In this document: one piece after another, positions 1-15,131 of the stretch | Numbering within the stretch: position 1 is the stretch's first letter | Layout: each line of letters begins with the position of its first letter | Assembly (NCBI GenBank): GCA_030753015.1 | Contig: JASMDC010000006.1 | Span: forward strand, 64,001-128,000 | DNA: 64,000 nucleotides | Direction: 5' to 3' | Origin: Candidatus Undinarchaeales archaeon | GTDB lineage: Archaea > SpSt-1190 > JASMDC01 | Notes under the pieces: generated by a model | Told to the model about the DNA's origin: nothing | The model's input: the letters and a program-made list of their open reading frames with translations, nothing else | Database searches by the model: none | Translations under genes and position numbers: made by a program

Positions 1-1
1 G

Positions 2-118: not shown

Positions 119-167
119 CTTCTTGTGGAGTGTTACGGTCAGGCCGTCCGATCCTTTTATTGGAACA

Positions 168-422: not shown

Positions 423-485
423 GACTATCACTCCTTCGTGCACAGACCGTGTAAATAACATAAAACTTACATGGTTGTACAGCAA

Positions 486-503
486 ATATAACAATAGTTA
501 TAT
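486..503. promoter_or_regulatory. Perfect inverted repeat ATATAAC-N4-GTTATAT, candidate operator
   Basis: Read directly; lies in the AT-rich spacer upstream of the zinc-ribbon gene. Confidence 0.4.
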
Positions 504-543
504 CCCGTTGTTCAAATACTTGCCCTTTGTGTTTCTTCCGACC

Positions 544-1473
544 TCACGACTGGGAGAAGACCTCTCGTAGCACTTCGAGGTTGAGCCGACCGGCGCTGTA
601 AACCTTTCCTGCAGCAAGGTCGTTGACCGTGACCTTGGCAGGGGCGAAGATGTCGTGATCCATCTTGTAGAAGTCCTTCCCCGCCTCCTTGAACAACTGC
701 TCGAACCGCTTACCATAGCTCTTGGAGCCCGTGGAAACGACCTTGTCGGTGAGCTCCTGGCTGAAGCCGTCGATGAAGTACAGGTTGTCGCCCCCGTAGA
801 TGAGGGAGTCGTTCGTGGCCCCCATGGCAGCAAGCCCCTTGTACACGGGTGCTAGCGGGGATACGCCGAAGGCCGAGACGACCTTCCGCACGTCGAACTT
901 GAGCACGTCGAGCATCCGGAACGTGCCCATCTCGAGCGTCCGGCTCGCCAGCTGGACCGATGAGGTTATGCTGTCTGTCCGCGCCACGAGCATGTGGACA
1001 TCTCGTGGTTTGATACCACACTCCTCGGCGACCGTCCCCGCCACATCGTCACTCGGGAGCGAACTTGCTTCCAGGCAGAGCACAGCCACATCGTCGTCCT
1101 CGCGCTGACGGTCGATGACCTCGTACACGTCCTTGGGCTTGAGGGCCAGTGCCCTGGCCGGGCCCGAGCCCATACCGAAGAACTTACCCGCGACCACCTG
1201 CCATCCTGCCATCTGCGAGGCTATGGTGGCCGTCGTCGGGTGGTCGGTGCGAACCTCGACCACGGGGTACGTCAGGTCCTCCTCGTGTCTGGTTGACAGC
1301 TGAACCTCGGCGAGCCCCCCCATGGTGACCTTGGCGAACAGTAGCCCCGCCTGAACGCTCCCTTTCCATGTCACACCACAGTCGATTACCGTGGCGCCGC
1401 ATTCAAGTGTCTGGGTAGGGCACCTCTCCTTCAACTGCTCGACGAGCCCGAGGACGCTTTCGTTGAGTCCCAT
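544..1473 (-). CDS. mch: Methenyl-H4MPT cyclohydrolase
   Basis: GATVIDCGV, TDHP..A.IASQMAGW, MGSGPARALA, MGATND..IYGG, IFAPA motifs. Confidence 0.95.
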   Translation of the reverse strand: MGLNESVLGLVEQLKERCPTQTLECGATVIDCGVTWKGSVQAGLLFAKVTMGGLAEVQLSTRHEEDLTYPVVEVRTDHPTTATIASQMAGWQVVAGKFFGMGSGPARALALKPKDVYEVIDRQREDDDVAVLCLEASSLPSDDVAGTVAEECGIKPRDVHMLVARTDSITSSVQLASRTLEMGTFRMLDVLKFDVRKVVSAFGVSPLAPVYKGLAAMGATNDSLIYGGDNLYFIDGFSQELTDKVVSTGSKSYGKRFEQLFKEAGKDFYKMDHDIFAPAKVTVNDLAAGKVYSAGRLNLEVLREVFSQS

Positions 1474-1494
1474 TATGTGAACCTCCCTGGTCCG

Positions 1495-2304
1495 TCATCC
1501 AGTCCGAACGAACACCTCGCCCTTTCCTTTACCGGAGATATCTCCTTCGTACCTGGCGAAGAGAGCTCCGATTTGCTCCTCTGCGAGCGGTAATCCGTTG
1601 CCTTTCAGCTGCTGCAGGAGCTCCCCGACGTGAGAGGGGCGATCGGTCCCTTGGGGGATGAACGTGGGGAGTAGCTGCGGGGGGGTGAGGGCGATGATGG
1701 TGCCCCCATCCATAGCGGCACCGGCCCGCCCGCCAAGAGCACCGAGGCACACGATGGTGCCACCGGTCATGAGCGTCCCAGCGAAGGTCCCCAAGCTACC
1801 TGCGACGGCGATCGTACCGCCGCACATCAGCTCCCCGACCTCATCGCCTGCGTTTCCTTCGATGATGATACTGCCGCCCGCCATACCGGTCTTCGAGCCC
1901 CGGTAGCCGGCCCCGGCGAGGTTGCCAGTGTTGCCCTTGACATGAATGAGGCCGTCCTTCATCTCGGCGCCGAGCCAGTCCCCGACATCTCCGTGGACGA
2001 CGATTCTACCGCCGTCCATCTCTGTGCCGAGGTGCATCCCGGCGTTCCCGTGGATGGTGATGAGGCCGGTGGTCATCCGTGCTCCGATGTGCTTGACCGC
2101 GCTGACATCGCCCTCGATGACGATCTCGTCCTCCTCGCCTGATGGATCGATCTCGAACAGCTGGCTCAGCGGCTTCCGCTTGTTCCCCCACAGCACCTCG
2201 AGCTTTCCCAGCTCCTTCGCGGGCCGGGCGGCGAAGACATCGGGTGATATGCATTCTGCCTCGACTGGTATCGTGAACGCGACCTTTGGTCTGAGAACGA
2301 CCAT
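1495..2304 (-). CDS. fwdC: Formylmethanofuran dehydrogenase subunit C (copy 2)
   Basis: VEAECISPD, GXGXG beta-helix repeats, GYRGS..GM.GG, YEGD...KGKGE. Confidence 0.93.
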   Translation of the reverse strand: MVVLRPKVAFTIPVEAECISPDVFAARPAKELGKLEVLWGNKRKPLSQLFEIDPSGEEDEIVIEGDVSAVKHIGARMTTGLITIHGNAGMHLGTEMDGGRIVVHGDVGDWLGAEMKDGLIHVKGNTGNLAGAGYRGSKTGMAGGSIIIEGNAGDEVGELMCGGTIAVAGSLGTFAGTLMTGGTIVCLGALGGRAGAAMDGGTIIALTPPQLLPTFIPQGTDRPSHVGELLQQLKGNGLPLAEEQIGALFARYEGDISGKGKGEVFVRTG

Positions 2305-3924
2305 CTAGATCCCTCCGCACCGTACGGCTTCCCCACGCGGCAGGTACTCGGCCTGCACGGGGTAGTTTTCCAATGTCATCGTGTAGTACTTCGCGAACAC
2401 CTGACGGTCCTCGTCGGTGAGCTCTCCACCGGCGTCTATCCAGTAGGTCTTGCCCTCGGGTGTGGCGACCACCTCCCCGTTCTTCACGACGATCCTTCCG
2501 TCCTTGATCGTGTAGACCGTGCGTTTGAACGATCCCTCTATGTCGTCCTCCGAGAAACGGTAGATGGCCAGGTCGGCGTCGGCCCCGATACCGAGATGCC
2601 CCTTTCCCTTGAGCCCGAGCGTCTTGGCAGTGGCCGCTCGCGTGATCACAGCGATCTCATAGAGCGAGTACTCCCTATCGAGGCTCGCCAGTATCGCCCG
2701 AGCAGCCGCGGCCTTGTGGATCGTGCCAAGGGTGGTCTCTCGCTCCTTCTTGCTCATCAACCAAGAGATGATCTTCGGGTAGTGGTAGAATGGACCACCG
2801 TTGGGGTGGTCGGTTGTGAGGCTGACCTTCCACGGATCCGTGATCATGAGCGCGACCTCGAGCCCGATGGCCCATTGCACAGCGTTGACCGGGTTCCTCT
2901 CCAGGTACCGGTACGGGACGATGCCGGCCCCGGTCTCCATCTCTACGTCCGCGTTGATCCACTTGTTCCCTGTCAGCCGGTACAGGTGGTGCTGTGCGGG
3001 ACCGTCGGCGGTCATGGTGGTGGTCTCGTCGAACAGGACCTGTCCCATGTCACACGTCACGTGGTCACACCGGTTGATCAACTTCGCGATCTCGGCCATT
3101 CCGGAACCGAAGTCCTTCCATCCCTCGCCGGTGTATGCCTGGAACTGCAGGTGTGTGAGGTGGATCCTGTCCTTGACCGCGTTGATCGTCTCGATGGTGG
3201 TCTCGTAGTTACCGGGCATCCCCAGATTGTTGGCGTGCACGTGGATGGGGTGAGGAAGCCCCATCTCATCGTTCGCCCTGGCGAGGCCCGCAAGCACCTC
3301 CCGCGGTGTGACGTCGTAGTTGTCCACGGGATCGTCGAGGCTTTCCACGTCACGGCCCCACTTCCAGTTCTCCACGCCACCGGGATTCACAAGTTTCACC
3401 GCGTACCCCTTCGATGCACCCAGGAACCAGGCAATGGTGTTCTTGAGGTTCTCCCGATCCCCCTCCTTGATATAATGCATGACGAAGTGGTTATTTCCCA
3501 AGAGGGTGTAGGCGGCCTTGTCCAGGATGGGCGTGTCGTTCAGCTCCTCGTGCGTATGCCGGGCTGATAGCGGAGTGATCGCGGGCTCCATCACCGTCGT
3601 GTACCCCATGGTCGCGTAACGGTACCCCGTCACGTAGGTCGTCGGGATCGAGTACCCGGTCCCCGCGCGCGTGACCGCGGTCTTCGGTACCGGGTCCTTG
3701 CGATGGTCCTCCGGTCTGAACAACCGGCCAAGGTTCACCTTCCCTCCAGAGATGTGGGTGTGGATGTCAAGGCCGCCTGGAAAGACGATGAGACCCGTGG
3801 CATCGATGACTTTTCCCTTCGCCTCCTCGACGATCTTTCCGTCCTTGATGAAGATGTCCATCTTCTCCCCGTCGATCCCGTTCGCGGGATCGTACACGGT
3901 GCCGTTCTCTATGACCAGGCTCAT
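2305..3924 (-). CDS. fwdA: Formylmethanofuran dehydrogenase subunit A (copy 2)
   Basis: Amidohydrolase fold: DIHTH, GRLFRPEDH, KLVNPGG, HVHANNLG, TTDHPNGGPF. Confidence 0.96.
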   Translation of the reverse strand: MSLVIENGTVYDPANGIDGEKMDIFIKDGKIVEEAKGKVIDATGLIVFPGGLDIHTHISGGKVNLGRLFRPEDHRKDPVPKTAVTRAGTGYSIPTTYVTGYRYATMGYTTVMEPAITPLSARHTHEELNDTPILDKAAYTLLGNNHFVMHYIKEGDRENLKNTIAWFLGASKGYAVKLVNPGGVENWKWGRDVESLDDPVDNYDVTPREVLAGLARANDEMGLPHPIHVHANNLGMPGNYETTIETINAVKDRIHLTHLQFQAYTGEGWKDFGSGMAEIAKLINRCDHVTCDMGQVLFDETTTMTADGPAQHHLYRLTGNKWINADVEMETGAGIVPYRYLERNPVNAVQWAIGLEVALMITDPWKVSLTTDHPNGGPFYHYPKIISWLMSKKERETTLGTIHKAAAARAILASLDREYSLYEIAVITRAATAKTLGLKGKGHLGIGADADLAIYRFSEDDIEGSFKRTVYTIKDGRIVVKNGEVVATPEGKTYWIDAGGELTDEDRQVFAKYYTMTLENYPVQAEYLPRGEAVRCGGI

Positions 3925-5651
3925 GATCTCACCCTCTCGATAATTTTCTCAAGAACTACCTTATCGGGCAGCTGGTCGGACTCGACCACCTTTCTAAGCC
4001 TGATAGGGATGCCGTCCATCCTGTAGGCTGTACCCTCGCACTCGATGCCGGCGATCGCTGAGGGGATCAGGACATCGGCGATGGACGAGGTGAGGTTGTG
4101 CTTCGGATCGATGATGATGGTGGGGATGTTCGCCAGATGCTCGACCGCTTCCCGTGGGAAGTGGGCGGCTGGGTCCGAGGAGATGATCAAAGCGGCATCG
4201 CACTCCTTTCGTGTCAGCATGTCGACGGCCGAGAACTCTCCCGGATTGTACACAGGGTAGCCTCGTGAGAGGTTGACAGCGAAAGGATAGCCTGTGATCC
4301 ACGTCATGACCGTGTTGATCCCCGTCACATTGTAATGGCCTCGCATAGGGAGGATGGTGAACTTCGTATGGTCGTTCAGGTCCCTGACCAGGCGTAGCGC
4401 CGCGTTGACGTTCATGTGGCGGCCCGCGGACATGGTGAGCCCCAGGCCGAAGAAGATGATCCCGAACTTGCAGCTCTTCATCCGCTCGGCCAGCTCCTTG
4501 ATGGTGCTGGCCGGGACACCGCCAACGTCACCCACGTCGTGCCCCTTGAGCGTGGCACGCAATGCGGATAGCAGCTCGTAGTCCTGGCCCTGCCTGACCT
4601 TGATGAACTGGTCCGCCAGCCGGTATGTATACTTCCATCGGGAGTCCACCTGGGAGGTCTTGGTCTCACGCACGTCCACGTGGACGATGGTGCGGTCCTT
4701 CCTTCCTTCAGTGGTGAACATGCCCTCGGGCGTTCCGGAATATCGTGTGATATGCCTGATGTGGGCCTCGGCGGGATTACATCCCCAGTAGACCACGAGG
4801 TCCGCCCGGTTCCGCACCTCACCGAGAGTGCACTTCGACACCCCGACGTCCTGAGCGGCCATCACGGTCGGTCCGTGGCACACGGAGGACGTGTTGTCGA
4901 TGGTCGCCCCGAGCAGTTCTGCGAGCTCGATGGCGCGCCGCTGGGCGTCGGACTCGGTGGAACTGAGGCCGTAGATCAGAGGGAAGTCCGCGCTTTTCAG
5001 GATCTCGGCGGCCTTGTCCAAGGCCTCATCGAGGGGAACGTCCACGAGCTTCCCCTTCTTCCTCACAGCGGGCTTCGCCCGGTCACGGTCCCAGTTGACG
5101 AATCTGCTCCTCGCGATGTCGCACCCCACCTCCATGTCCCTGACCATTCCTTTGCACATCACGAGCTCCACGTCGTCGCACAGGCAGCCGCAGAAGGGGC
5201 AGACAACGTCGGTCATGATCGACCGCTCGTCCTCGGGGGGGAGTGGAGGGGGAGGCGTCTGGTCGGGCGCTTGGGCGATCTTCTCCTTAAAAGGGAGAAG
5301 GTCGTTGAGCGTGGTCGGTCCGTCCTCGGTCTTCGAAAGCTCGATCCACACACCCTTGAACCGCGGCATACCGGTACCCCCGGTGTCCCCGCCGATGAGG
5401 GCGTTGGCCCAAGGGCCTACTGGTATGAACACGTTGCCCCGGTCGAGCTGGCCTTTACTTGCCCGGACCACCACCGAACCTGATCCCGTGGTAATCTTGA
5501 CCGGAGCGTTCTCCGTGATACCCAGGTCATCCATGTCATCCCCGTTCATGAACGCCACGGCAACCTCCTCGTAGTACTCCGACGAGGTCTTTCCGACCTC
5601 GAGGGCAATACCCTGACCGACCGTCCTGCCCGTGTTCAACATGCATCTCAT
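3921..5651 (-). CDS. fwdDB: Fused formylmethanofuran dehydrogenase subunits D and B (FwdD::FwdB)
   Basis: N-terminal ~120 aa are FwdD (LNTGRTVGQG, GPWANAL, GTGMPRFKG); a Pro-rich linker follows; then FwdB (CPFCGCLCDD, SSVCHGP, WGCNP..AH.RH, PMRGHYNV, GTAYRMDG). Confidence 0.93.
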   Translation of the reverse strand: MRCMLNTGRTVGQGIALEVGKTSSEYYEEVAVAFMNGDDMDDLGITENAPVKITTGSGSVVVRASKGQLDRGNVFIPVGPWANALIGGDTGGTGMPRFKGVWIELSKTEDGPTTLNDLLPFKEKIAQAPDQTPPPPLPPEDERSIMTDVVCPFCGCLCDDVELVMCKGMVRDMEVGCDIARSRFVNWDRDRAKPAVRKKGKLVDVPLDEALDKAAEILKSADFPLIYGLSSTESDAQRRAIELAELLGATIDNTSSVCHGPTVMAAQDVGVSKCTLGEVRNRADLVVYWGCNPAEAHIRHITRYSGTPEGMFTTEGRKDRTIVHVDVRETKTSQVDSRWKYTYRLADQFIKVRQGQDYELLSALRATLKGHDVGDVGGVPASTIKELAERMKSCKFGIIFFGLGLTMSAGRHMNVNAALRLVRDLNDHTKFTILPMRGHYNVTGINTVMTWITGYPFAVNLSRGYPVYNPGEFSAVDMLTRKECDAALIISSDPAAHFPREAVEHLANIPTIIIDPKHNLTSSIADVLIPSAIAGIECEGTAYRMDGIPIRLRKVVESDQLPDKVVLEKIIERVRS

Positions 5652-8092
5652 CAGTCACCACCTCCTAGGGCTTTCTCGAAGGCTTTCTTCGTCTTGTCCA
5701 GTTCTTCCTTCGTCACGTTCTCGACGATGGTATGCATCTGTTCGATCGTGTCAGCGAACATCTGGCCCTCGGCGGCGGAGAACCATCCCAGGTGCAACCG
5801 GTTCTTGTCAAGACCCAGCTTATCCATCCTCTTCCAGAAGCGCTCCACACGCTTCTTGGCATAATGATTGGCGTCGATGTAGTGACAGTCGCCGATGTGG
5901 CAGCCCGAGACGAGCACCGTGGCGACCCCCCGTGCGAAGGCCCGCTCGATGAACTTCTTGGCCATCCTCCCCGAGCACATCATCCTGATTATGCGCACGC
6001 TGGTGGGGTACTGCATCCGGCTCACTCCCGCGAAGTCCGCTCCCGCATAGGAGCACCAGTTGCAGCAGAACGCCAGGATCTTCTTGTCGGCGTCCTCCGC
6101 GGTGGCCGCGTCGATCTGGGAGAAGATCTGCTCGTCGGTGAAGTGGCGCATGACCAAGGCGGCTGAGGGACATTCCGCTCCGCAGGTGCCGCACCCGTGG
6201 CACGCGGCCTCGATGATCGTAATCTTCTTAGTCTTCTTGTCGAAGGCGATGGCGTTGTAGGGGCAGACCTTGGCGCACAGGCCGCAACCTATGCACTTCT
6301 CGTCGATCAGCTTCGGCGTGATTGCCTCCACCTTCACCTTTCCCTTGGCCATGAGGATGCTCGCGCGGGCAGCCGCGGCGCTGGCCTGGGTCACACTGTC
6401 CTTGATGGCCTTGGGTGATTCTGCGGTCCCGGCGAAGAAGATACCGCCGGTGGGCGCGTCCACCGGCCGGAGCTGTGGGTGCGCTTCCATGAAGAATCCG
6501 TCCGCGGTCCGGGACAGGTTGAAGAGGCGCTGGATCTTGTCGGCGTCCTCCCCGGGCTTCAGACCGATGGACAGGATCACCATCCCTGTGTCGATCTGGT
6601 ACAACTCCTTTTGAAGGGTGTTCTCTCCGACTAGACGCAGGTCCCCTCCCTTGCGCTCGAAGATCTCGGCGGGTAGCCCGCGGATGAATATAACGCCCGC
6701 GGCCTTCGCCCGCCTGAAGAGGTCCTCGTATCCCTTGCCGAAGCACCGCATGTCCACGAAGAACACGTAGATCTTGGTGTCAGGCCAGTGCTCCTTGATG
6801 AGCAGGGCGTCCTTGATGGAGTTCATGCAGCATACGCTGCTGCAGTAGGGCAGGCCGCATTTCTCGGATCGCGAGCCCACGCACTGGACGAACGCCACCG
6901 ACTCCGGTATCGCCCGGTCGCTGGGCCGTATCAGATGACCTCCGGAAGGCCCGCCGGCGTTGATCAGGCGCTCGAACTCAAGCGATGTAAGGACGTTCGG
7001 GAACCGACCGTAGCCGTACATCTTCAGGGGAGAGGGATCGTACACATCCGCGCCGGTTGCGATGATGACGGTGCCCACATCGAGTTCGACCTTCTCGGGC
7101 TCCTGCCGGAGGTCGATCACCCCCGCACCCGAGGCCTTGCACACCCTCACGCATTCGTGGCACCGTATGCAGCTGTCCATGTCCACGATAAAGGTCGATG
7201 GCACTGCCTGGGCGAAGGGCGTGTAGATGGCCTTCCGCGGGGCGAAGCCTGTGTCGAACTTGTTGGGGACCTGGACCGGGCAAACCTTGGCGCAGTCCCC
7301 GCAGGCCTTGCACTCCTCCACGACGTACCGGGGCCTCTTCAGGACCGTCGCCGTGAAGTTCCCGATGTACCCTTTAACGTCAACGACCTCGCTGTTGGCC
7401 ATGAGCTCGATGTTCGGGTGTCGGCCCACGTCGGACATCACCGGCGCGAGGATGCAGATGGAGCAGTCCAGTGTGGGGAAGGTCTTGTCGATCTGGGCCA
7501 TCCTGCCCCCGATGCTGGGCTCCTTCTCCACGAGGTAGACCTTGTATCCTGTGTCAGCTAGGTCGAGAGCGGCCTGTAGCCCGGCGACCCCGCCACCGAC
7601 GATCAGGGTCTTCCTTATCACGGGGACCTCGAGCTCCACCTGGGGCCTGAGCAGGGATACCTTGGCCACCGCCATCCTGACCAGATCCTTGGCTTTCTGG
7701 GTGCCTTTCTCCTTCTCATATAGGTGGACCCAGCTGCAGTGGTCCCGAATGTTGGCCATCTCAAACAGGTATTTGTTCAACCCGGCCGCCTCACAGGCCT
7801 TTCGGAAGGTGGGCTCGTGGAGACGGGGGGTGCAGGATGCGACAACGACCCTGTTCAATTTTTCCTCCTTGATGTCGGTCCTGATTTCATCCTGCCCCGG
7901 GTCCGAGCAGCAGTACCTGTTGGTCTTCGCAACGACGACGTTCGGGAGCGTGGACGCGAACTTGGCGACGCCCTCAACGTCAACGGACCCGGCGATGTTC
8001 AGACCGCAGTGGCACACGAACACGCCCACTCGGATCTCGTTGTCATCACTGGAGGGTTCAGATGTCTTCTTGCTCGCTTTTCCTTTTGCCAC
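5651..8092 (-). CDS. hdrA: Heterodisulfide reductase subunit A with C-terminally fused MvhD (HdrA::MvhD)
   Basis: VFVCHCG.NIAG, NIRDHCSWVH, GGGVAG (FAD), DKTFPTLDC, LEFER, YCSSVCCM..IK, ferredoxin motifs, then MvhD motifs FCCNWCSY, MCSGR, GCHIGDCHY. Confidence 0.95.
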   Translation of the reverse strand: MAKGKASKKTSEPSSDDNEIRVGVFVCHCGLNIAGSVDVEGVAKFASTLPNVVVAKTNRYCCSDPGQDEIRTDIKEEKLNRVVVASCTPRLHEPTFRKACEAAGLNKYLFEMANIRDHCSWVHLYEKEKGTQKAKDLVRMAVAKVSLLRPQVELEVPVIRKTLIVGGGVAGLQAALDLADTGYKVYLVEKEPSIGGRMAQIDKTFPTLDCSICILAPVMSDVGRHPNIELMANSEVVDVKGYIGNFTATVLKRPRYVVEECKACGDCAKVCPVQVPNKFDTGFAPRKAIYTPFAQAVPSTFIVDMDSCIRCHECVRVCKASGAGVIDLRQEPEKVELDVGTVIIATGADVYDPSPLKMYGYGRFPNVLTSLEFERLINAGGPSGGHLIRPSDRAIPESVAFVQCVGSRSEKCGLPYCSSVCCMNSIKDALLIKEHWPDTKIYVFFVDMRCFGKGYEDLFRRAKAAGVIFIRGLPAEIFERKGGDLRLVGENTLQKELYQIDTGMVILSIGLKPGEDADKIQRLFNLSRTADGFFMEAHPQLRPVDAPTGGIFFAGTAESPKAIKDSVTQASAAAARASILMAKGKVKVEAITPKLIDEKCIGCGLCAKVCPYNAIAFDKKTKKITIIEAACHGCGTCGAECPSAALVMRHFTDEQIFSQIDAATAEDADKKILAFCCNWCSYAGADFAGVSRMQYPTSVRIIRMMCSGRMAKKFIERAFARGVATVLVSGCHIGDCHYIDANHYAKKRVERFWKRMDKLGLDKNRLHLGWFSAAEGQMFADTIEQMHTIVENVTKEELDKTKKAFEKALGGGD

Positions 8093-8097
8093 GGTCC

Positions 8098-9513
8098 TCA
8101 GCTCCCCTCCGTTCTGTCTGCGAGATACTTGTCGATCGACGTGGCAGCCCGCTTTCCGGCAATGATCGCCTCCATCGCCGAGGCGGGGCCCGACACCGCG
8201 TCCCCCCCGGCGAACACGATGGACCGGCTCGTCTCCATGCTGAACGGATCTGCGATGATTGTGCCCCTTCCAGCGAGCTTGAACGCTCTCAGGATCCCGG
8301 GATCCAATGTCATTCCGATAGCGACTATGATGGAATCAGCCTCCACGACGGACTCCGTACCGGACTCGACCTTCGGGCAGAAGAAACCCAAGGGGTCGAG
8401 CACCGAAAGGCACTTCAGGCTCTCCACACCCGTACATCGTCCGTTCGCCCCGATGATCCGCGTAGGCATCCTGGCGGGATGGAGGACAACACCCTCTTTA
8501 ACGGCCTCCTCGATCTCAGGCCCGAACGCAGGCATCTCCTGCCGTGATTCACCACAGACGATGTGTGCCTCCTTGGCACCGAGCCGCAATACGGTCCGGG
8601 CCGCGTCCATGGCCACATTACCGCCCCCGATGATCACAACCTTGTCCCCGAGATCGAACCGAGTGCCCGTCTTCGTTCCACTCAGGAAGCCGAGTACATC
8701 GAATACACCTTCCAGGTCCTCGCCAGCGATACCGATCCTCCTGCTCATGTGGAGACCGGTTGCGACGAACACCGCTTGGTAGCCCTCCTCTAGGAGGTCG
8801 TCGAGTTCGGGGGCCTTGGTACCGGTCCTGATGTCCACGCCCCGGTTCTCGATCCGCTGGATGTCGGCGTCGAGCGCCTTTGAGGGCAGCCTGAACTCGG
8901 GTATACACCTTCTCGGCATGCCTCCAGCCTCGGGTAGGCATTCGAACACCGTGACGGGATACCCTTTCCCGGCCAGTTCCCAAGCGGCCGTGAGCCCCGC
9001 AGGACCAGAACCGACGATGGCGATCCTCTCGTCATGGGTGATGGGGGGTGGTTCCTCCCCTTTGATCATGCGTTCATATTCGGTGATGAAGCTCTCGAGC
9101 GCTTCGGCGACCTGCGGTTTTTCCACGTGGCCGTGAAGGGGATTGAAGCAGATATAAGTGCATACCGCGGGCAGGGGCATTTCGTTCTTGATGATTTCCT
9201 GGGCCTCCTTGAACGCCTCAAGGTGTCCCCTCTCGGCCGCAGCGTCCTTCATCTGCAGGAGGAGCTCTGGCACCGCGAGTCCTTGGGGGCATCGCCGGTG
9301 ACACCGGTAGCACCAGGCGCACAGCCAGATGGCCGTACCATTCATGACCTTCTCAGGATCGAACGGGAGCCCTTGGAGAAGGCTCCGGGGATTGTAGTGA
9401 TGAGGGAGCAGCTCCATCATTGGGCAGCTCGCGGTGCAGACACCGCACTGGAAACAGAATTTCAGTTGATCAGTCTCCAGTAGCTCCTTTAGGATCTCGT
9501 CGTTCGTTCCCAT
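8098..9513 (-). CDS. HdrC-like 2x[4Fe-4S] domain fused to a GltD/NfnB-family FAD/NAD(P) oxidoreductase
   Basis: N-terminal CFQCGVCTASCP...NPR...IWLCAWCYRCHRRCPQG (HdrC signature); then GSGPAG, IPEFRLP, GGGNVAMDAAR, FAGGD. ATG at 9513 has a GAGGAG RBS. Confidence 0.88.
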   Translation of the reverse strand: MGTNDEILKELLETDQLKFCFQCGVCTASCPMMELLPHHYNPRSLLQGLPFDPEKVMNGTAIWLCAWCYRCHRRCPQGLAVPELLLQMKDAAAERGHLEAFKEAQEIIKNEMPLPAVCTYICFNPLHGHVEKPQVAEALESFITEYERMIKGEEPPPITHDERIAIVGSGPAGLTAAWELAGKGYPVTVFECLPEAGGMPRRCIPEFRLPSKALDADIQRIENRGVDIRTGTKAPELDDLLEEGYQAVFVATGLHMSRRIGIAGEDLEGVFDVLGFLSGTKTGTRFDLGDKVVIIGGGNVAMDAARTVLRLGAKEAHIVCGESRQEMPAFGPEIEEAVKEGVVLHPARMPTRIIGANGRCTGVESLKCLSVLDPLGFFCPKVESGTESVVEADSIIVAIGMTLDPGILRAFKLAGRGTIIADPFSMETSRSIVFAGGDAVSGPASAMEAIIAGKRAATSIDKYLADRTEGS

Positions 9514-9541
9514 CGTTACTCCTCGATACAGCTGTAGGGGA

Positions 9542-10318
9542 TCAATCCATGAGGAGGATGGTCCCCTTTCCGTTCTCAACGAGGTCCCCGGTGAACGTCT
9601 TAAAATCCCCGCTGAATCCCTCGCCCTCGATTTTGGGGTCCTTGATAGAGCCCCCTTCCTTGAATCCGAGCATGAGCTCTCCTTTCGAGACTACGATGGT
9701 CCCACCGGTCATCTGGGCACCGACGCGTGGGCCTGCTGTGCCCTCGATGACGATGAGCCCCTTCTTCATGTGGATGCCCGTGAACAGGTCAGTATCACCC
9801 TTGATGACGATCGTGCCACCGGCGAGCCTGCTGCCAACCTCGACACCTGCGTTCCCGTGTACTGTGATCCTGCCACCCTTCATGCCCGCTGACTCACCCC
9901 TGTAGGCCGCGCCCAGGTAGTCGGATGCGTTGCCCTTGATGACGAGCTCGCCACCGGACATGTCCATGCCACAGAACGCGTCGCAGTTTCCTTCCACCAC
10001 GATCCTGCCGCCCGACATCCGGTAGCCGCAGTACATACCGCCGTCCCCGTTCACCTGGACCTCGCCCTCAGCGAGGGCCTCGCCGATGCGCTTGAACTTG
10101 CTCAGATCGTCACCCTCGAGCACGATCAGTCGGCCTTTACCCTTCTCGTCCTCGATGGTCACATCGAAGAAGTCACTCAGTGTGCGTTCCTGGTTCCCCT
10201 CGTGGACGGCTACCTTCTTGATCTCAGCAAGGGTCATCCCGAAGAGCTGGTGGTTGACACCATCGGCCTCGACATTGATGTCGTCTACATTGTTCTTGGA
10301 CCGCAGGAGTATCTTCAT
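9542..10318 (-). CDS. fwdC: Formylmethanofuran dehydrogenase subunit C (copy 1)
   Basis: GXGXG repeats, GAAYRGE..GMKGG, FTGD...GKG. Confidence 0.93.
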   Translation of the reverse strand: MKILLRSKNNVDDINVEADGVNHQLFGMTLAEIKKVAVHEGNQERTLSDFFDVTIEDEKGKGRLIVLEGDDLSKFKRIGEALAEGEVQVNGDGGMYCGYRMSGGRIVVEGNCDAFCGMDMSGGELVIKGNASDYLGAAYRGESAGMKGGRITVHGNAGVEVGSRLAGGTIVIKGDTDLFTGIHMKKGLIVIEGTAGPRVGAQMTGGTIVVSKGELMLGFKEGGSIKDPKIEGEGFSGDFKTFTGDLVENGKGTILLMD

Positions 10319-11991
10319 TTCTTACACCTCTCCATGACCATCTCGCTCTCCCCGAGATAGTCCATCTGCACGGGGTAGTTATCGAGCGAAACGGAGTAGT
10401 ACCCTTCGAACCGCTTTCTCAGGTCCTTCTCGATGACGTCCGTCCGGGGTTTCGTGTCGATCCAGAGCGTCCTTCCCGTAACGGCATTGACGACCTTCCC
10501 GTCCTTGACCGCGAGTTGGCCGCCCTTGATGGTGTATGCACAGTGCCTGAAGGCACGTTCGATCGTTGCGCCGTCCTTCTCCTCGACACCGATGTCGTAC
10601 ACCGCAACGTCCGCATCGGCACCGATCCCCAGGTGCCCCTTGTTAGCGAGACCAAGGGTCTGTGCGGTGCCTCGTGTGATAAGACAGATATCGAAGAGGT
10701 CCAGTTCACGGTCCATGTCGGAGATGGCGGCCTTGCTCTTCACGGCATCGTGGAGCGTGGCTATGGTCTCGGCCCTGGCCTTCTTGGACATGAGCCATGC
10801 GATCATCTCCGCATAGCATGTGAAGGGGCCACCGTTCGGATGGTCCGTGCTCAGGTGTATCTTCGCAAGGTCCTTTAACGCAAGGACCATCTCGAGACCG
10901 ACGGCCCACTGGATCGCGTTCACGCTGACATCCTTCCGATACTCGTAGGGAACGACCCCAGTACCAGCCTCGAGCTCAACGTCGAAGTTTATCCATTTCT
11001 GCTTGCCGAGCTGGTGGAGATGGAACTCGAAGGGCCCGTCGGCCGTCATGGTCGTTGTGGGCTCGAAGCAGACGTTCCCCGTGTCGACCGTGATGTTCGG
11101 GGTCTTGTCGATCTTCTCGGCGAGCTCGACCCCCCTGGACTCGAACGTCCTCCAGGAGTCGCCACCGTACCCGTTGAACTGTAGGTGTGTGATGTGCAGG
11201 ACGGACCGTTCCTTGTTGGTGAGGCCTTTGACGGAGTCGATGGTCTCGAGCGCGGTCGTGTAGTTACCGGGGGTGCCGAGGTTGTTGCAGTGGAGGTGAA
11301 CCGCATGGGGGAGCCCGAGGCTCTCGTTGATGTCCACAAGACCCCGGATGATCTCCCGCGGCGTCACCTCGAAGTGCGTGCAGGGATCGTCAAGGCCGTC
11401 AACGTTCTTGCCCCACGCCCAGCTGGCCGTACCGCCAGGGTTCACGCATTTGATACCATAGCACTTGGTGGCCAAGAGCATCCATGCGACCCACTCCTTG
11501 CATCGATCGATGTCGCCGGCCTTGAGGTACTCGATGACCTGATGATTGTTGCCCAAGAGGAGGAGCCCGGTCTTGTCGAGCATCGGGATATCATGGAACT
11601 CTTCGTGGGTGTGCCTGGCCTTCAGAGGAGGGACCGCAGGCTCGATGACCGTTGTGTAGCCCATCTCGGAGTAGGTGTACCCGGTCAGAAACGTTGTGGG
11701 TACGGAGAAACCGGAGCCGGCCCGTGTGACGTTCGTTCTCGGGACGGTGCGCATCCGGCTGTCCTCTGGTCTGAAGAGCCGGCCGCTGTTCACCTTCGAG
11801 CCGGCGATATGCGCATGGATGTCGACGCCGCCCGGGAACACTACCTTCCCGGCCAGGTCAATGGTCTCGGCCTTTTTGCCGAGATCTTTCTCGGCGACCA
11901 TCTTCCCGTCCTTGATGAAGAGGTCCATCTTCTCGCCACGGATCCCGTTCTTGGGATCGAAGACGATACCGTTCTTGAGTATCAGTCCCAT
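10315..11991 (-). CDS. fwdA: Formylmethanofuran dehydrogenase subunit A (copy 1)
   Basis: DIHAHIAG, RPED, KCVNPGG, HLHCNNLG, STDHPNGGPF; the likely start is MGLILKNG at 11991. Confidence 0.96.
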   Translation of the reverse strand: MGLILKNGIVFDPKNGIRGEKMDLFIKDGKMVAEKDLGKKAETIDLAGKVVFPGGVDIHAHIAGSKVNSGRLFRPEDSRMRTVPRTNVTRAGSGFSVPTTFLTGYTYSEMGYTTVIEPAVPPLKARHTHEEFHDIPMLDKTGLLLLGNNHQVIEYLKAGDIDRCKEWVAWMLLATKCYGIKCVNPGGTASWAWGKNVDGLDDPCTHFEVTPREIIRGLVDINESLGLPHAVHLHCNNLGTPGNYTTALETIDSVKGLTNKERSVLHITHLQFNGYGGDSWRTFESRGVELAEKIDKTPNITVDTGNVCFEPTTTMTADGPFEFHLHQLGKQKWINFDVELEAGTGVVPYEYRKDVSVNAIQWAVGLEMVLALKDLAKIHLSTDHPNGGPFTCYAEMIAWLMSKKARAETIATLHDAVKSKAAISDMDRELDLFDICLITRGTAQTLGLANKGHLGIGADADVAVYDIGVEEKDGATIERAFRHCAYTIKGGQLAVKDGKVVNAVTGRTLWIDTKPRTDVIEKDLRKRFEGYYSVSLDNYPVQMDYLGESEMVMERCKK

Positions 11992-11992
11992 T

Positions 11993-13360
11993 CTACTTGC
12001 CCCCTCTTTTCTCCTTGACACGTTCAAGGATCTTCGCGACGATGTCCGTGTCCGACGGCACGTCACTATTGATGACCTTCTTCAGTCGTATGGGGACCCC
12101 GTCCATTCGGTAGGCCGTCCCCTCGGCCTCAACTCCGGTGACCGCGCATGGGAGGTAGACGTCGGCGAACTTGGACGTGATGGTCTCGTGAGGATCGATG
12201 ACGATGACCGGCATATTGCTGAACCGTCGTGCAGCCTCCTTCGGGAGGTGCGCGACCGGATCGGACGCGACGATGAACAGGCAGTCCGCATCGTCCCGCA
12301 TCAGCAGGTCCACCAGCGAGGTCTCTCCGGGATTGTATCTTGCATACCCCCTCGTGAGGTCCACGGCGAACGGGTAACCCGTCTGCCACGTGAACACCTC
12401 GGCGGCGCCCGTGACATTGTAATGGCCACGCATGGGGCGGATGACGACCTTCGTGTCCTTGTTGAGCTCGGCCCCAAGAGAGAGGATAGCGTCGATGTTC
12501 CGATGCCTGCCGCGTGTCATGGTCAGCCCGAGGCCGAAGAAGAACGCGCAGAACTTCGAGCGCTTGAGCCTCTGGGCGAGCTTCATGACCTTCTTCTTGA
12601 TGACGCCCGTGCCAGGTATCTCGTCCGGTAGCTCCTCCCCCTTCATAGCGAGCCTGAGCGCGTGGATCAGCTCGTAATCCGCGTTCGGATCAACCTTGAT
12701 GAACTGGGTGGCGACACTCGTGGACGCGGTCTCCCTGACGTCGACGACGACGACCTCCCGGTCCTGGCGTCCCTTCTCCCTGAAGGCGCCCCTGGGGTAG
12801 ACCGTGTACCTGCTCATGTGGCGCATGTGCGCCTCGGAGGGGTTGCACCCCCAGTAGATGATGAGGTCCGCATGGTTGAGGACCGTTCCCAGTGTGCAGG
12901 AGGAAATGCCCACGTCCTGGACGGCCAGGGTGGAGGGGCCATGGCAGACGGAAGAGGTCTGATCGATGACACCGCCGATCTCCTCCGCAAGGGCAATCCC
13001 TTCACGGGTAGCCTCCACCGAAGTGGATGCCCATCCGAAGAGCACCGGTTTCTTGGCAGCGAGGAGCAGATCGGCCGCCTTGTCGATGCACGCATCCAGC
13101 TTGGCCTCATTGAACGCGTCGTCAGGAGCCTTCTTGTCACCGCTCTTCTTCCTGAGCAGGTTCTTCCTCGTCGCCCCCTTGGTGATGGACTTCTTGAACT
13201 TGAAGTATCCGACCCCGCACGCGTGATAGATCTCGGCCTCGTCGTCCCCCGTCCTCTTGATATGGATGTCGTCGCAGAGGTTGCCGCAAAACGGGCACGT
13301 GACGTCCGTGACATCGGTGAGATCGGGCTTGATGTTCGTGAGTTTCTCTTCCTCGGCCAT
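11993..13360 (-). CDS. fwdB: Formylmethanofuran dehydrogenase subunit B (Mo/W-pterin catalytic subunit, Cys ligand)
   Basis: CPFCGNLCDD, SSVCHGP, WGCNP.EAHMRH, PMRGHYNV, GTAYRMDG; start MAEEEK at 13360. Confidence 0.95.
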   Translation of the reverse strand: MAEEEKLTNIKPDLTDVTDVTCPFCGNLCDDIHIKRTGDDEAEIYHACGVGYFKFKKSITKGATRKNLLRKKSGDKKAPDDAFNEAKLDACIDKAADLLLAAKKPVLFGWASTSVEATREGIALAEEIGGVIDQTSSVCHGPSTLAVQDVGISSCTLGTVLNHADLIIYWGCNPSEAHMRHMSRYTVYPRGAFREKGRQDREVVVVDVRETASTSVATQFIKVDPNADYELIHALRLAMKGEELPDEIPGTGVIKKKVMKLAQRLKRSKFCAFFFGLGLTMTRGRHRNIDAILSLGAELNKDTKVVIRPMRGHYNVTGAAEVFTWQTGYPFAVDLTRGYARYNPGETSLVDLLMRDDADCLFIVASDPVAHLPKEAARRFSNMPVIVIDPHETITSKFADVYLPCAVTGVEAEGTAYRMDGVPIRLKKVINSDVPSDTDIVAKILERVKEKRGGK

Positions 13361-13361
13361 C

Positions 13362-15130: not shown

Positions 15131-15131
15131 T

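What the first reader, a model, noticed from the sequence alone, without database searches (positions are those of the whole stretch)
5651..9513. HdrB-less Hdr module with an HdrC::NAD(P)H-oxidoreductase fusion inserted between two fwd operons
Seen: a two-gene unit co-oriented with and tightly packed between fwdC1 (28-nt gap) and fwdD::B (1-nt overlap). Gene 1 has an HdrC-type 2x[4Fe-4S] N-terminus fused to a GltD/NfnB-like flavoprotein; the first GltD cluster is replaced by HdrC, the second is degenerate (CTYIC only), and the NADP-type YRR is replaced by CGES. Gene 2 is HdrA::MvhD and keeps the LEFER Glu and the Lys after CSxxCC. The window has no hdrB, mvhAG, fdh or fwdF. Known: in methanogens HdrA bifurcates electrons from MvhD to HdrC-HdrB (CoM-S-S-CoB) and to Fwd. 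Inference: the heterodisulfide arm may be replaced by a pyridine-nucleotide site reached through HdrC. That would give a heterodisulfide-independent bifurcating/confurcating complex linking NAD(P)(H) directly to Fwd in a non-methanogenic Wood-Ljungdahl archaeon.
Basis: partly seen in the sequence, partly recalled or inferred. Interest (0 to 1): 0.85.

Follow-up and report, generated by a model that had tools for sequence, protein, structure and literature searches.

The report
HdrA partnered with HdrC-NfnB fusion protein
Two tightly linked genes next to the CO2-reducing formylmethanofuran dehydrogenase encode an electron-splitting flavoprotein (HdrA) and a partner that seems to replace its usual disulfide-reducing subunits with an NAD(P)H-binding flavoprotein, a pairing that recurs in many uncultured archaea and appears undescribed.

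Summary
Gene 1 (8098-9513, minus strand) is an HdrC-like 2x[4Fe-4S] domain fused to an NfnB/GltD-type FAD/NAD(P)H flavoprotein. Gene 2 (5651-8092) is an HdrA2-type HdrA with a fused MvhD. Both are packed between fwdC1 and fwdD::B.

The pair is not a local oddity. In 80 related loci, mostly Bathyarchaeia, HdrA::MvhD lies directly downstream of the gene-1 homologue in 75 and divergently upstream in 3. Downstream of hdrA comes a 2-oxoacid:ferredoxin oxidoreductase (45 of 57 loci with enough sequence), a polyferredoxin (9) or Fwd (3).

The Fwd-linked form occurs in this genus and in one other lineage. The two genomes of that lineage have no CCG (HdrB/HdrD) domain and no second HdrA.

A co-fold places the HdrC-like domain on HdrA's Cys404-Cys422 loop (score 0.62, best control 0.00). 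That pass may be memory of solved HdrABC.

The window's own genome does carry three hdrB-like loci, one of them an orphan hdrCB pair. The third redox partner and the direction of electron flow are unknown.

Verdict: a new variant of HdrA-based complexes, probably NAD(P)(H)-linked and HdrB-independent. Seven literature searches found no description of it.

The parts
8098..9513 (-). Gene 1, 471 aa: an HdrC-like 2x[4Fe-4S] domain fused to an NfnB/GltD-type FAD/NAD(P)H flavoprotein
   Evidence: Pfam and NCBIfam. PDB sequence searches. The AF2 model (pLDDT 78.2) aligns over model residues 19-468 to NfnABC, NfnI-L and NfnB at Z 30-31. Family alignment A1.
9166..9513 (-). HdrC-like domain of gene 1 (residues 1-116), with two CxxCxxCxxxCP motifs (C20/23/26/30 and C65/68/71/75)
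   Evidence: All eight Cys and both Pro are invariant in 20 of 20 sequences. Best PDB hits are HdrC chains. Residues 15-44 and 74-78 form the predicted interface with HdrA.
9061..9165 (-). Linker (residues 117-151) holding the relic of the GltD proximal-cluster motif (C118xxxC122)
   Evidence: Aligns to NfnB 'AVCGRVCPQEVQCESRC' but lacks the later Cys. Only C122 is invariant in A1.
8098..9060 (-). Flavoprotein part (residues 152-471): GSGPAGL FAD fold, GGGNVAMD second Rossmann fold, and VCGES where NfnB has YRR
   Evidence: Pyr_redox_2 100 bits. Alignments to 9bov_A, 9n5u_A, 8oh5_C and 4ylf_B. The motif is kept in the same-genus genome.
5651..8092 (-). Gene 2, 813 aa: HdrA2-type (type Ia) HdrA with C-terminal MvhD
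   Evidence: NF040770 1210.7 bits, above the 1100 cut-off. 5odc_A 802.7 bits and 5odc_D 142.8 bits. Mean column identity 80% across 16 homologues.
5717..6079 (-). MvhD ([2Fe-2S]) domain of gene 2 (residues 672-792)
   Evidence: Pfam FlpD 153.7 bits. PDB MvhD chains.
3921..5651 (-). fwdD::B fusion (set 2). Its start overlaps the hdrA stop by 1 nt.
   Evidence: TIGR03129 567.2 bits, above the cut-off. FwdD NF042908 106.5 bits, below its 175 cut-off. The motifs 'CPFCGCLC' and 'SSVCHGP' are present. Junction read.
2305..3924 (-). fwdA (set 2)
   Evidence: TIGR03121 796.7 bits.
1495..2304 (-). fwdC (set 2)
   Evidence: TIGR03122 260.1 bits.
544..1473 (-). mch (methenyl-H4MPT cyclohydrolase)
   Evidence: Pfam MCH 351 bits.
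9542..13772 (-). fwd set 1: fwdD 13362-13772, fwdB 11993-13387, fwdA 10315-12066, fwdC 9542-10318. This set is absent at this place in the sister-lineage loci.
   Evidence: NCBIfam. L084 and L106 go mtd-ftr-gene1 directly.
13783..14241 (-). 152-aa Fe-S protein (FeS + Fer4 domains) ahead of fwdD1
   Evidence: Pfam FeS 43.9 bits and Fer4_7. RnfB/CdhE-like N-terminus in NCBIfam.
14267..15992 (-). ftr (14267-15130) and mtd (15132-15992), upstream members of the conserved cluster
   Evidence: Pfam FTR, FTR_C and MTD. The same two genes precede gene 1 in L084.

Best explanation
The two genes encode a dedicated two-subunit redox module.

Subunits:
- Subunit A is a type Ia (HdrA2-like) HdrA. It keeps the flavin-site Glu and Lys of bifurcating HdrA and carries a fused MvhD [2Fe-2S] domain.
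- Subunit B is a chimera. An HdrC-like domain with two [4Fe-4S] clusters sits where an NfnB/GltD flavoprotein normally has its own Fe-S domain. It is followed by the FAD and NAD(P)H-binding folds.

Proposed mechanism:
- The HdrC-like domain docks on HdrA where HdrC docks in methanogen HdrABC.
- The branch that ends at HdrB and CoM-S-S-CoB in methanogens therefore ends here at a second flavin and a pyridine nucleotide.
- The other side of HdrA exchanges low-potential electrons with the enzyme encoded just downstream. That enzyme is formylmethanofuran dehydrogenase here, and a 2-oxoacid:ferredoxin oxidoreductase or a polyferredoxin in Bathyarchaeia.

What rests on what:
- Shown: domain make-up, conserved gene pairing, the nature of the downstream partners, and genomes that hold the pair without any HdrB-type protein.
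- Predicted: the docking site.
- Inferred: that NAD(P)+/NAD(P)H takes the place of the heterodisulfide, that the complex bifurcates or confurcates, and which way electrons flow.
- Unknown: the third substrate (what feeds or drains the MvhD domain or the HdrA flavin).
For: Domain make-up:
- Gene 1 is Fer4_8/Fer4_17 plus Pyr_redox_2. HdrC TIGR03290 gives E 1.8e-17, and Fer4_20 is below its cut-off.
- The 5 best PDB hits of residues 1-163 are all HdrC.
- The flavoprotein part hits NfnABC, Stn and NfnB at E 1e-70 to 6e-56, and the fold agrees at Z 30-31.
- HdrA passes the HdrA2 model cut-off. E374 and K427 equal E356 and K409 and are invariant in 16 of 16 sequences.

Gene pairing:
- 468 stretches in species-representative genomes encode a relative, and the best 80 were kept.
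- HdrA::MvhD lies directly downstream on the same strand in 75 of 80. The script counted 72; L116, L126 and L130, whose starts overlap, were added.
- It lies divergently upstream in 3 of 80 and is missing in 2 of 80. In L087 the contig ends 58 nt after gene 1. L103 has 3.7 kb downstream without HdrA.

Downstream partner:
- Of 57 loci with at least 1.5 kb left after hdrA, 45 have OFOR, 9 a polyferredoxin, 3 Fwd and 0 anything else.

HdrB-free genomes:
- G042 and G043 carry gene1-hdrA-fwdD::B-A-C. They have 0 CCG matches and a single HdrA homologue.

Co-fold:
- HdrA (813 aa) was folded with gene-1 residues 1-160. The median ipSAE is 0.62 (runs 0.66, 0.57, 0.62) and the best of 3 controls is 0.00.
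- That mark was reached by 58 of 80 solved complexes and 2 of 110 mismatched pairs.
- The runs agree in at least 98% of contacts, and the partner pLDDT is at least 71.
- The interface is HdrA 358, 404-415, 446-447, 472-476 and 488-497 against gene 1 residues 15-44 and 74-78.

Other:
- The only ORFs with a CxxCxxCxxxC-type motif in 1-14400 are gene 1, hdrA and the 152-aa ORF before fwdD1; no polyferredoxin ORF was found there.
- The three Fwd-linked HdrA form one clade with SH-aLRT 100.
- Contigs from 3 RNA libraries of 2 studies, at least 99% alike, lie on both genes and both fwd sets. This is weak, because DNA carry-over is not excluded.
Against: - The window's own genome has three hdrB-like loci, including an orphan hdrC-like/hdrB-like pair on C29 with no HdrA beside it. 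In Methanosarcina acetivorans HdrA2 works with unlinked HdrB2C2 (PMC6085437, passages read).
- The co-fold pass may be memory of solved HdrABC structures. It used my own alignments, only the N-terminal 160 residues of gene 1 were folded with HdrA, and no cofactors were modelled.
- The N-terminal Fe-S loops of the single-chain model are poorly defined, with pLDDT below 50 at residues 1-25 and 70-81. Whether the HdrC-like clusters are within electron-transfer distance of the gene-1 FAD is therefore open, since the GltD proximal-cluster motif is degenerate.
- Only two substrates are evident, so bifurcation is not demonstrated.
- NAD(P)+ at about -320 mV is a poor high-potential acceptor (own knowledge).
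- No Mvh-type hydrogenase was seen in the three hydrogenase loci of G043 that I scanned (G042's were not scanned), and none in G000. The donor at MvhD is unidentified.
- Completeness of G042 and G043 is not given.
Confidence: 0.6

Rival explanations
1. HdrA2B2C2-type reading. This HdrA works, as in Methanosarcina acetivorans, with an unlinked HdrBC (here the orphan pair on contig C29) and still reduces a disulfide. Gene 1 is then an added NAD(P)H entry or exit module rather than a replacement of HdrBC.
For: - The HdrA passes the HdrA2 model.
- An orphan hdrC-like (263 aa, Fer4_8/17) and hdrB-like (277 aa, 2 CCG) pair lies on C29, with further Fe-S proteins and no HdrA nearby.
- Hdr2A is often not co-localised with Hdr2BC (PMC6085437, passages read).
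Against: - G042 and G043 have the same cluster but no CCG domain at all and no other HdrA.
- The HdrC-like domain of gene 1 is predicted to take the HdrC site. That would exclude a second HdrC on the same protomer.
- The gene1-hdrA pairing is near-universal in the family: 78 of 80 loci.
Confidence: 0.15
2. Non-bifurcating wire. The module simply passes electrons between a low-potential enzyme (Fwd, OFOR) and NAD(P)+. This would make an NAD(P)+-reducing formyl-MFR or 2-oxoacid dehydrogenase, comparable in logic to pyruvate:NADP+ oxidoreductase (recalled), with HdrA acting as a multi-cluster conduit.
For: - Only two substrates are evident from the conserved genes. The partner is always OFOR, a polyferredoxin or Fwd (57 of 57 loci).
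- No third redox enzyme is conserved in the neighbourhood.
- Downhill flow from about -500 mV to -320 mV needs no coupling (own knowledge).
Against: - HdrA keeps the Glu/Lys pair tied to bifurcation, invariant in 16 of 16. It also keeps the MvhD domain, which serves as a third port in solved complexes.
- HdrA is conserved at about 70% identity between lineages whose aEF-2 is 44-54% identical. That is costly for a mere wire.
Confidence: 0.2
3. Gene 1 is an independent NfnB/SudA/GltD-like enzyme that merely lies beside hdrA, with no physical link to HdrA.
For: Sources name homologues 'NADPH-dependent glutamate synthase beta subunit-like oxidoreductase'. A canonical NfnAB pair exists in the same window.
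Against: - Adjacency to HdrA::MvhD holds in 78 of 80 loci across distant lineages.
- No NfnA-like or GltB-like partner is encoded beside it.
- The N-terminus is HdrC-type, not Fer4_20.
- The co-fold passes against controls.
Confidence: 0.03

Closest known systems
MvhADG-HdrABC and Fdh-Hdr-Fmd/Fwd supercomplexes of methanogens (PDB 5odc, 7bkb, 8rvu, 9sfi)
   Same: - The HdrA core aligns over 645 residues to 5odc_A at 802.7 bits.
- The MvhD module is the same.
- The subunit next to HdrA is HdrC-type with two clusters.
- hdr and fwd genes are linked, as in Methanocella and in the purified Hdr-Fwd complexes (PMC12054007, passages read).
   Different: - No HdrB lies beside it, and none at all was found in the sister-lineage genomes.
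- The HdrC-like domain is fused to an NAD(P)H flavoprotein.
- MvhD is fused to HdrA.
- There is no FwdF/G polyferredoxin.
- There is no Mvh or Fdh input module at the locus.
HdrA2B2C2 of Methanosarcina acetivorans (type Ia HdrA; F420H2-dependent)
   Same: It scores above the curated HdrA2 cut-off and has the HdrA::MvhD fusion. In 9 of 57 loci a polyferredoxin follows, as reported beside HdrA2 (PMC9012536 and PMC6085437, passages read).
   Different: The partner encoded beside it is the HdrC::NfnB chimera, not a separately encoded HdrB2C2. F420 dependence is untested.
Type III HdrA / HdrA-NfnB insertions (ANME-1 HdrA9-11, Bathyarchaeota A10)
   Same: A GltD/NfnB-like NAD(P)H flavoprotein is combined with HdrA (PMC12054007 and PMC9012536, passages read). 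I saw the same fused form in G149 (1252 aa) and in 6 bacterial loci: L011, L012, L026, L031, L033 and L035.
   Different: In type III the GltD domain, with a Fer4_20 part of 83 bits, is inserted inside HdrA's inserted ferredoxin domain. Here it is a separate polypeptide with an HdrC-like head, predicted to dock at the HdrC site. That is a different arm of HdrA.
NfnAB / NfnI / Xfn and the GltD-like domain of Bfu-type NfnABC and StnABC
   Same: The FAD and NAD(P)H folds match at Z 29-31 over about 370 residues and 34-37% identity. An Fe-S domain precedes the flavin domain.
   Different: - There is no NfnA-type partner.
- The N-terminal domain is HdrC-type.
- The proximal-cluster motif is reduced to CxxxC.
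- In this genus the YRR of the NADPH site is CGE.
Other HdrC-like domains fused to a different output module (HdrD = HdrC::HdrB; QmoC = HdrC-like::membrane cytochrome b), recalled and not tested here
   Same: The design principle is the same: an HdrC-type dicluster domain couples an HdrA-like flavoprotein to an alternative output.
   Different: The output here is a soluble NAD(P)H flavoprotein. No sequence comparison with these proteins was made here.

Membership tests
HdrA, type Ia / HdrA2 | Score above the curated NCBIfam HdrA2 cut-off | tested here: met
   NF040770 scores 1210.7 bits against a cut-off of 1100.
HdrA, type Ia / HdrA2 | Flavin-site Glu and Lys (E356/K409 of the M. thermolithotrophicus enzyme) | tested here: met
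   The gap-free alignment block has an offset of 18, so E374 and K427 correspond. Both are invariant in 16 of 16 sequences. The residue names come from PMC12054007 (passages read).
HdrA, type Ia / HdrA2 | C-terminal MvhD fusion | tested here: met
   FlpD 153.7 bits at residues 672-792. 5odc_D 142.8 bits.
HdrA, type Ia / HdrA2 | Works with HdrB2C2 and oxidises F420H2 | not testable with these tools
   No HdrBC lies at the locus. An orphan hdrCB exists on C29. No activity data exist.
HdrC | Two CxxCxxCxxxCP motifs in a helical dicluster domain | tested here: met
   C20/23/26/30-P31 and C65/68/71/75-P76 are invariant in 20 of 20 sequences. The best PDB hits are HdrC chains.
HdrC | Reaches the curated equivalog score | tested here: not met
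   TIGR03290 scores 63.7 bits against a cut-off of 160. NF041890 scores 53.8 against 270. It is an HdrC-like domain, not an HdrC orthologue.
HdrC | Encoded with, and bound to, HdrB | tested here: not met
   No CCG protein is in the window. None was found in G042 or G043.
NfnB / GltD small-subunit family | FAD and NAD(P)H Rossmann folds of the Pyr_redox_2 type | tested here: met
   Pyr_redox_2 100 bits. 4ylf_B E 5.7e-56. Z 30.3.
NfnB / GltD small-subunit family | Fer4_20 N-terminal domain with two clusters | tested here: not met
   Fer4_20 scores 21.3 bits against a cut-off of 25.8. The window's canonical paralogue scores 147.3 bits.
NfnB / GltD small-subunit family | Partner NfnA/GltB encoded beside it | tested here: not met
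   The neighbours are fwdC1 and hdrA. No such partner is among the conserved neighbour clusters.
NfnB / GltD small-subunit family | Arg pair (YRR) after the second Rossmann strand, taken as the NADPH 2'-phosphate site (its role is recalled) | tested here: not met
   The window and G001 have VCGES. Of 74 family members, 65 keep YR(R), 3 have C-x-E-type motifs and 6 were not matched by my pattern.
Type III HdrA (GltD inserted in HdrA) | GltD domain inside the HdrA polypeptide | tested here: not met
   These are two separate ORFs with a stop codon and a 5-nt gap.
Formylmethanofuran dehydrogenase (Fwd/Fmd) | Subunits A, B, C above curated cut-offs, plus subunit D | tested here: met
   TIGR03121, TIGR03129 and TIGR03122 are above their cut-offs for both sets. 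The FwdD model is matched but below its cut-off: 106.5 and 86.4 bits against 175.
Formylmethanofuran dehydrogenase (Fwd/Fmd) | Redox-active FwdB (N-terminal Cys cluster motif, active-site Cys-His) | tested here: inconclusive
   'CPFCGxLC' and 'SSVCHGP' are present in both FwdB. Their assignment as cluster and metal ligands is recalled, not computed.
Formylmethanofuran dehydrogenase (Fwd/Fmd) | FwdF/FwdG polyferredoxin conduit | tested here: not met
   In 1-14400 the only ORFs with a CxxCxxCxxxC-type motif are gene 1, hdrA and the 152-aa ORF before fwdD1.

The most novel reading that the evidence does not exclude
This is a heterodisulfide-free HdrA bifurcase. NAD(P)+ is bound by the HdrC::NfnB chimera and takes the place of CoM-S-S-CoB as the 'easy' acceptor. 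A CO2-fixing enzyme wired to HdrA (Fwd here, pyruvate/2-oxoacid synthase in Bathyarchaeia) takes the low-potential electron. A still unidentified mid-potential donor (F420H2 at the HdrA2 flavin, or a module docking on MvhD) supplies the pair. It would be an Nfn-like balance built on HdrA. It would explain how Mcr-less, and in one lineage HdrB-less, Wood-Ljungdahl archaea reach the potential of formyl-methanofuran or pyruvate synthesis.
Probability: 0.3. Interest if true: 0.85.

Novelty: new variant of a known kind. Interest (0 to 1): 0.68.

Why it matters
HdrA is one of four known bifurcating flavoprotein types (PMC5861303, abstract and passages read). In archaea its role outside methane metabolism is an open puzzle, often noted as 'Hdr without a known heterodisulfide' (PMC10667645 and PMC11291895, passages read).

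This module offers a concrete, testable answer for part of that puzzle. It is a dedicated subunit that swaps the disulfide site for a pyridine-nucleotide site. It is conserved with enzymes that work at ferredoxin potential.

It occurs in 13 of 151 sampled genomes of the class that holds G041 (NCBI-labelled Bathyarchaeota). It also occurs in two further lineages, where it sits inside the H4MPT Wood-Ljungdahl gene cluster. If it bifurcates, it changes energy budgets drawn for archaeal acetogenesis and carbon fixation.

The pair is small (two genes) and its partners are defined, so it is suited to heterologous expression and cryo-EM.

Tried and rejected
Ideas tested and dropped:
- Rosetta-stone fusion. 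A 1265-aa frame in G149 looked like gene1::hdrA. It proved to be a type III HdrA with GltD inserted inside HdrA. It is not the same topology.
- Bacterial relatives as separate subunits. Of 70 loci (L009-L078), 6 showed HdrA, HdrC-like or MvhD hits, and in all 6 the GltD part lies inside HdrA. The other 64 showed no HdrA, HdrC-like or MvhD hit, and their gene-1 matches mostly begin after residue 43.
- H2 as the donor through Mvh. G000 has no NiFe large subunit. The three hydrogenase loci of G043 are Hox-like with a GltD-type diaphorase, 3b-like and group 4, with none next to an mvhD. G001 does have two. So absence in G000 may be a species difference or an assembly gap.
- Fwd as the general partner. 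Among the 80 closest fwdD::B loci, only 3 carry gene1 and hdrA upstream: L162 and L163, on the same contigs as L084 and L106, and L170 from the same genus.
- Prevalence at E <= 1e-100. That gave 104 of 151 genomes, but it is not selective, because most hits start at profile position 50 or later and are generic GltD or fused forms. I therefore counted only hits starting at position 25 or earlier. That is 14 genomes, or 13 after removing G149.
- Co-transcription. No RNA-library contig bridges a gene junction, so nothing can be said.

Limits:
- A third conserved redox enzyme in the neighbourhood was not found.
- No geometry (cluster-to-flavin distances) could be measured, because the tools return no coordinates.
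- The VIA structural alignment and the HMMER alignment disagree on which gene-1 Cys motif matches NfnB's first motif. I left this open.
- Completeness of G042 and G043 is not given.

Literature:
- Seven searches found no paper describing a separate HdrC-like::GltD/NfnB subunit beside HdrA.
- Appel et al. 2021 (BBA Bioenergetics) is not held and may cover it.
- Supplementary tables of PMC12054007 (gene clusters of type Ia HdrA) were not seen and may bear on it.

Full report
**1. What is there**

The window is contig C84:64001-128000 of a 3.85-Mb, 117-contig genome (98.9% complete, 5% contamination). GC content is about 0.57-0.65.

On the minus strand lies one long run of C1 genes, in this order:
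- CODH/ACS genes: cdhA 21282-23690, cdhC 19372-20799, and a CdhD-family gene with an N-terminal FeS domain at 15959-17362
- mtd (15132-15992)
- ftr (14267-15130)
- a 152-aa Fe-S protein (13783-14241)
- fwdD, fwdB, fwdA, fwdC (13772 down to 9542)
- gene 1 (8098-9513)
- gene 2 (5651-8092)
- fwdD::B, fwdA, fwdC (5651 down to 1495)
- mch (544-1473)

There is a 28-nt gap with a GAGGAG box before gene 1. There is a 5-nt gap before hdrA. The hdrA stop and the fwdD::B start overlap by 1 nt (TGATG).

**2. Gene 1**

Pfam gives Fer4_8 and Fer4_17 at the N-terminus and Pyr_redox_2 over the rest. Fer4_20, the Fe-S domain of GltD, NfnB and DPD, reaches only 21.3 bits against a 25.8 cut-off.

NCBIfam finds HdrC (TIGR03290, E 1.8e-17). 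This is far below the equivalog cut-off, so gene 1 has an HdrC-like domain and is not an HdrC orthologue.

Against solved structures, residues 1-163 hit only true HdrC chains in the first five places (5odc_C, E 7.8e-17). FrdB and SdhB follow at E about 1e-3.

Residues from about 100 onward hit the GltD-like parts of Bfu-type NfnABC and Stn (E about 1e-70) and NfnB (E 5.7e-56).

A canonical NfnB paralogue in the same window (43579-45012, beside an NfnA-like gene) scores 147 bits on Fer4_20. The contrast is therefore real.

In an alignment of 20 family members, both CxxCxxCxxxCP motifs are invariant. Of the GltD proximal-cluster motif, only a CxxxC (or CxxC) remains.

The AF2 model (pLDDT 78.2, pTM 0.83; the N-terminal loops are poor) superposes on NfnABC, NfnI-L and NfnB at Z 30-31, from model residue 19-30 onward. 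The HdrC-like domain therefore occupies the place of the usual Fe-S domain.

Where NfnB has YRR, the window has CGE. The same-genus genome keeps this. In contrast, 65 of 74 family members have YR(R), including the two other Fwd-linked ones. That these Arg bind the 2'-phosphate of NADPH is my recollection, so I write NAD(P)H throughout.

**3. Gene 2**

It passes NCBI's HdrA2 model (1210.7 bits against a 1100 cut-off).

It aligns over 645 residues with M. thermolithotrophicus HdrA (802.7 bits), and its tail aligns with MvhD.

Glu374 and Lys427 correspond to E356 and K409, the residues tied to the bifurcating flavin in PMC12054007 (passages read). Both are invariant in 16 homologues, and the mean column identity of that alignment is 80%.

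**4. The pair is a conserved module**

A profile-guided scan of species-representative genomes found 468 stretches encoding a relative. The best 80 were kept. They are mostly Bathyarchaeia, plus one Atabeyarchaeia (Asgard) genome, one genome labelled Hadarchaeota and one labelled Thermococci.

| Position of HdrA::MvhD relative to the gene-1 homologue | Loci (of 80) |
|---|---|
| Directly downstream, same strand | 75 |
| Divergently upstream | 3 |
| Not seen | 2 |

The script counted 72 downstream; three more (L116, L126, L130) have overlapping starts and were added. Of the two loci without HdrA, one contig ends 58 nt after gene 1, and the other has 3.7 kb downstream without HdrA.

| Gene following hdrA | Loci (of 57 with at least 1.5 kb left) |
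|---|---|
| Four-subunit 2-oxoacid:ferredoxin oxidoreductase | 45 |
| Polyferredoxin | 9 |
| fwdD::B-A-C | 3 |
| Anything else | 0 |

No other redox enzyme is conserved nearby.

In an even sample of 151 genomes of G041's class, full-length family members occur in 13.

**5. The Fwd-linked form**

Only the window's genus (G000, G001) and two other genomes (G042, G043) have gene1-hdrA-fwdD::B-A-C. The other two genomes have mtd and ftr directly upstream of gene 1. In this genus, therefore, it is the first fwd set plus the 152-aa Fe-S protein that is extra.

G042 and G043 are close kin (aEF-2 83% identical) despite different NCBI labels. They are far from G000 (52-54%). That makes two independent lineages.

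The three HdrA that could be included in the tree form a clade (SH-aLRT 100) among Bathyarchaeia sequences. The tree has a midpoint root, and the window's branch is long.

Most telling, G042 (4.0 Mb) and G043 (3.2 Mb) have no CCG-domain match at all, although that family is found in 12 of 14 control genomes. They also have a single HdrA homologue, the one in this cluster. In that lineage the HdrA cannot work with an HdrB.

The window's own genome does have hdrCBA on C50, hdrCBA(A)-mvhD plus an FrhB-like gene on C62, and an orphan hdrC-like/hdrB-like pair on C29.

**6. Docking**

A co-fold of HdrA::MvhD (813 aa, 16-row alignment) with gene-1 residues 1-160 (20-row alignment) gave these results:
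- Median score 0.62 (runs 0.66, 0.57, 0.62), against 0.00 for the best of 3 controls.
- That mark was reached by 58 of 80 solved complexes and 2 of 110 mismatched pairs.
- The runs agree in at least 98% of contacts, and the partner pLDDT is at least 71.

The first Cys motif of gene 1 plus C75/P76 touches HdrA residues 404-415, 446-447, 472-476 and 488-497. That is the loop carrying Cys404, 417, 421 and 422. From memory, this is the cluster between FAD and HdrC in 5odc; I could not check coordinates.

Because HdrABC structures are solved, this pass shows likeness and may be memory.

**7. How it most likely works**

The HdrC-like head plugs into HdrA. Electrons then pass from the HdrA flavin through the Cys404-422 cluster and two HdrC-like clusters to the gene-1 flavin and NAD(P)+/NAD(P)H.

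HdrA's other ports (the inserted ferredoxin domain and MvhD) serve the downstream enzyme. Within 1-14400 the only ORFs with a ferredoxin-type Cys motif are gene 1, hdrA and the 152-aa protein ahead of fwdD1, and none is a polyferredoxin. Both FwdB keep 'CPFCGxLC' and 'SSVCHGP'.

What remains open:
- Which port faces Fwd.
- The third substrate.
- The direction of flow.
- Whether the degenerate proximal motif leaves too long a gap to the gene-1 flavin.

On energetics (own knowledge), NAD(P)+ is a weak 'high-potential' acceptor. An Nfn-like balance with a donor near -380 to -420 mV is conceivable. A plain downhill wire from Fwd or OFOR to NAD(P)+ is the main rival. No Mvh-type hydrogenase was found in G000 or G043.

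**8. Relation to what is known**

GltD/NfnB domains inserted inside HdrA (type III; ANME-1, Bathyarchaeota) are described (PMC12054007 and PMC9012536, passages read). I saw the same form in G149 and in six bacterial loci.

The present form differs in two ways. It is a separate subunit, and its head is HdrC-like, which points to a different arm of HdrA.

Seven searches found no description of it. One likely review is not held, and supplements were closed.

Near-identical DNA occurs in public runs of 12 studies labelled marine or seawater. Short contigs from three RNA libraries lie on both genes and both fwd sets, but none bridges a junction, and DNA carry-over is possible.

**9. Verdict**

- I file the module as a new variant of HdrA-based complexes, with interest 0.68.

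Noticed in passing
window 38470-45012 (+): A four-gene run: a NuoF-like protein (FMN and NADH_4Fe-4S domains, 653 aa), a NuoG/Fdh-like molybdopterin protein (833 aa; Fdh-alpha model 143.7 bits against a 666 cut-off; no Molydop_binding hit), an NfnA-like protein (337 aa) and a canonical NfnB (Fer4_20 147 bits). It resembles the diaphorase part of the Hox-like hydrogenase locus seen in G043 (L249), but no hydrogenase subunits follow. A PPDK-like gene comes next.
   Followed up: partly
whole genome G000 compared with its relatives: The genome (3.85 Mb) and its one congener (3.6 Mb) are filed in the same class as genomes of 0.6-1.2 Mb. The congener's record is labelled Undinarchaeota. A large, Wood-Ljungdahl-bearing, mcrA-less member of a small-genome group is odd, and its placement may be unsafe.
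   Followed up: no
G000 compared with G001:C13:69237-105029: The same-genus genome has two NiFe hydrogenase large-subunit genes and a second mvhD beside its hdr cluster. G000 shows no NiFe large subunit and only one free mvhD.
   Followed up: partly
G000:C29:112144-117215 (L242): An orphan hdrC-like + hdrB-like pair is followed by two proteins without a Pfam hit, a second small HdrC-like protein, a polyferredoxin and a Fer4_5 protein. No HdrA is nearby.
   Followed up: partly
G000:C62:81375-86775: The order is hdrC, hdrB, a split or doubled hdrA, mvhD, then an FrhB/FdhB-like gene. This arrangement resembles F420-linked Hdr clusters described for other archaea (PMC10667645, passages read).
   Followed up: no
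L084/L106 and L100 compared with the window: HdrA::MvhD is 67-76% identical between lineages whose aEF-2 is only 44-54% identical, while gene 1 is 43-51% identical. This points either to lateral spread of the module or to very strong constraint on HdrA.
   Followed up: partly
G042 and G043 (genomes of L106 and L084): The two records carry different phylum-level labels (Hadarchaeota and Thermococci), but their aEF-2 is 83% identical. Both genomes are large (4.0 and 3.2 Mb). The labels look unreliable.
   Followed up: partly
window 3921-5651 and loci L162-L164, L178, L181, L187, L196, L199: The fwdD::B fusion in one frame is shared with a few other lineages, including Methanothrix-labelled loci. 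Most close relatives show FwdD and FwdB as two separate matches.
   Followed up: no
window 400-14400: The stretch is held at 57-100% of sampled words by 16 DNA runs, and at least in part by runs of 12 studies labelled marine or seawater metagenome. The organism seems widespread in such samples.
   Followed up: partly
L090, L098, L109, L112, L117, L118, L137, L146, L152: In one well-supported Bathyarchaeia sub-clade (including Ca. Bathyarchaeum-labelled records) the pair is followed by a polyferredoxin of about 320 aa instead of OFOR. This echoes the HdrA2-polyferredoxin neighbourhood reported in Methanosarcina.
   Followed up: partly
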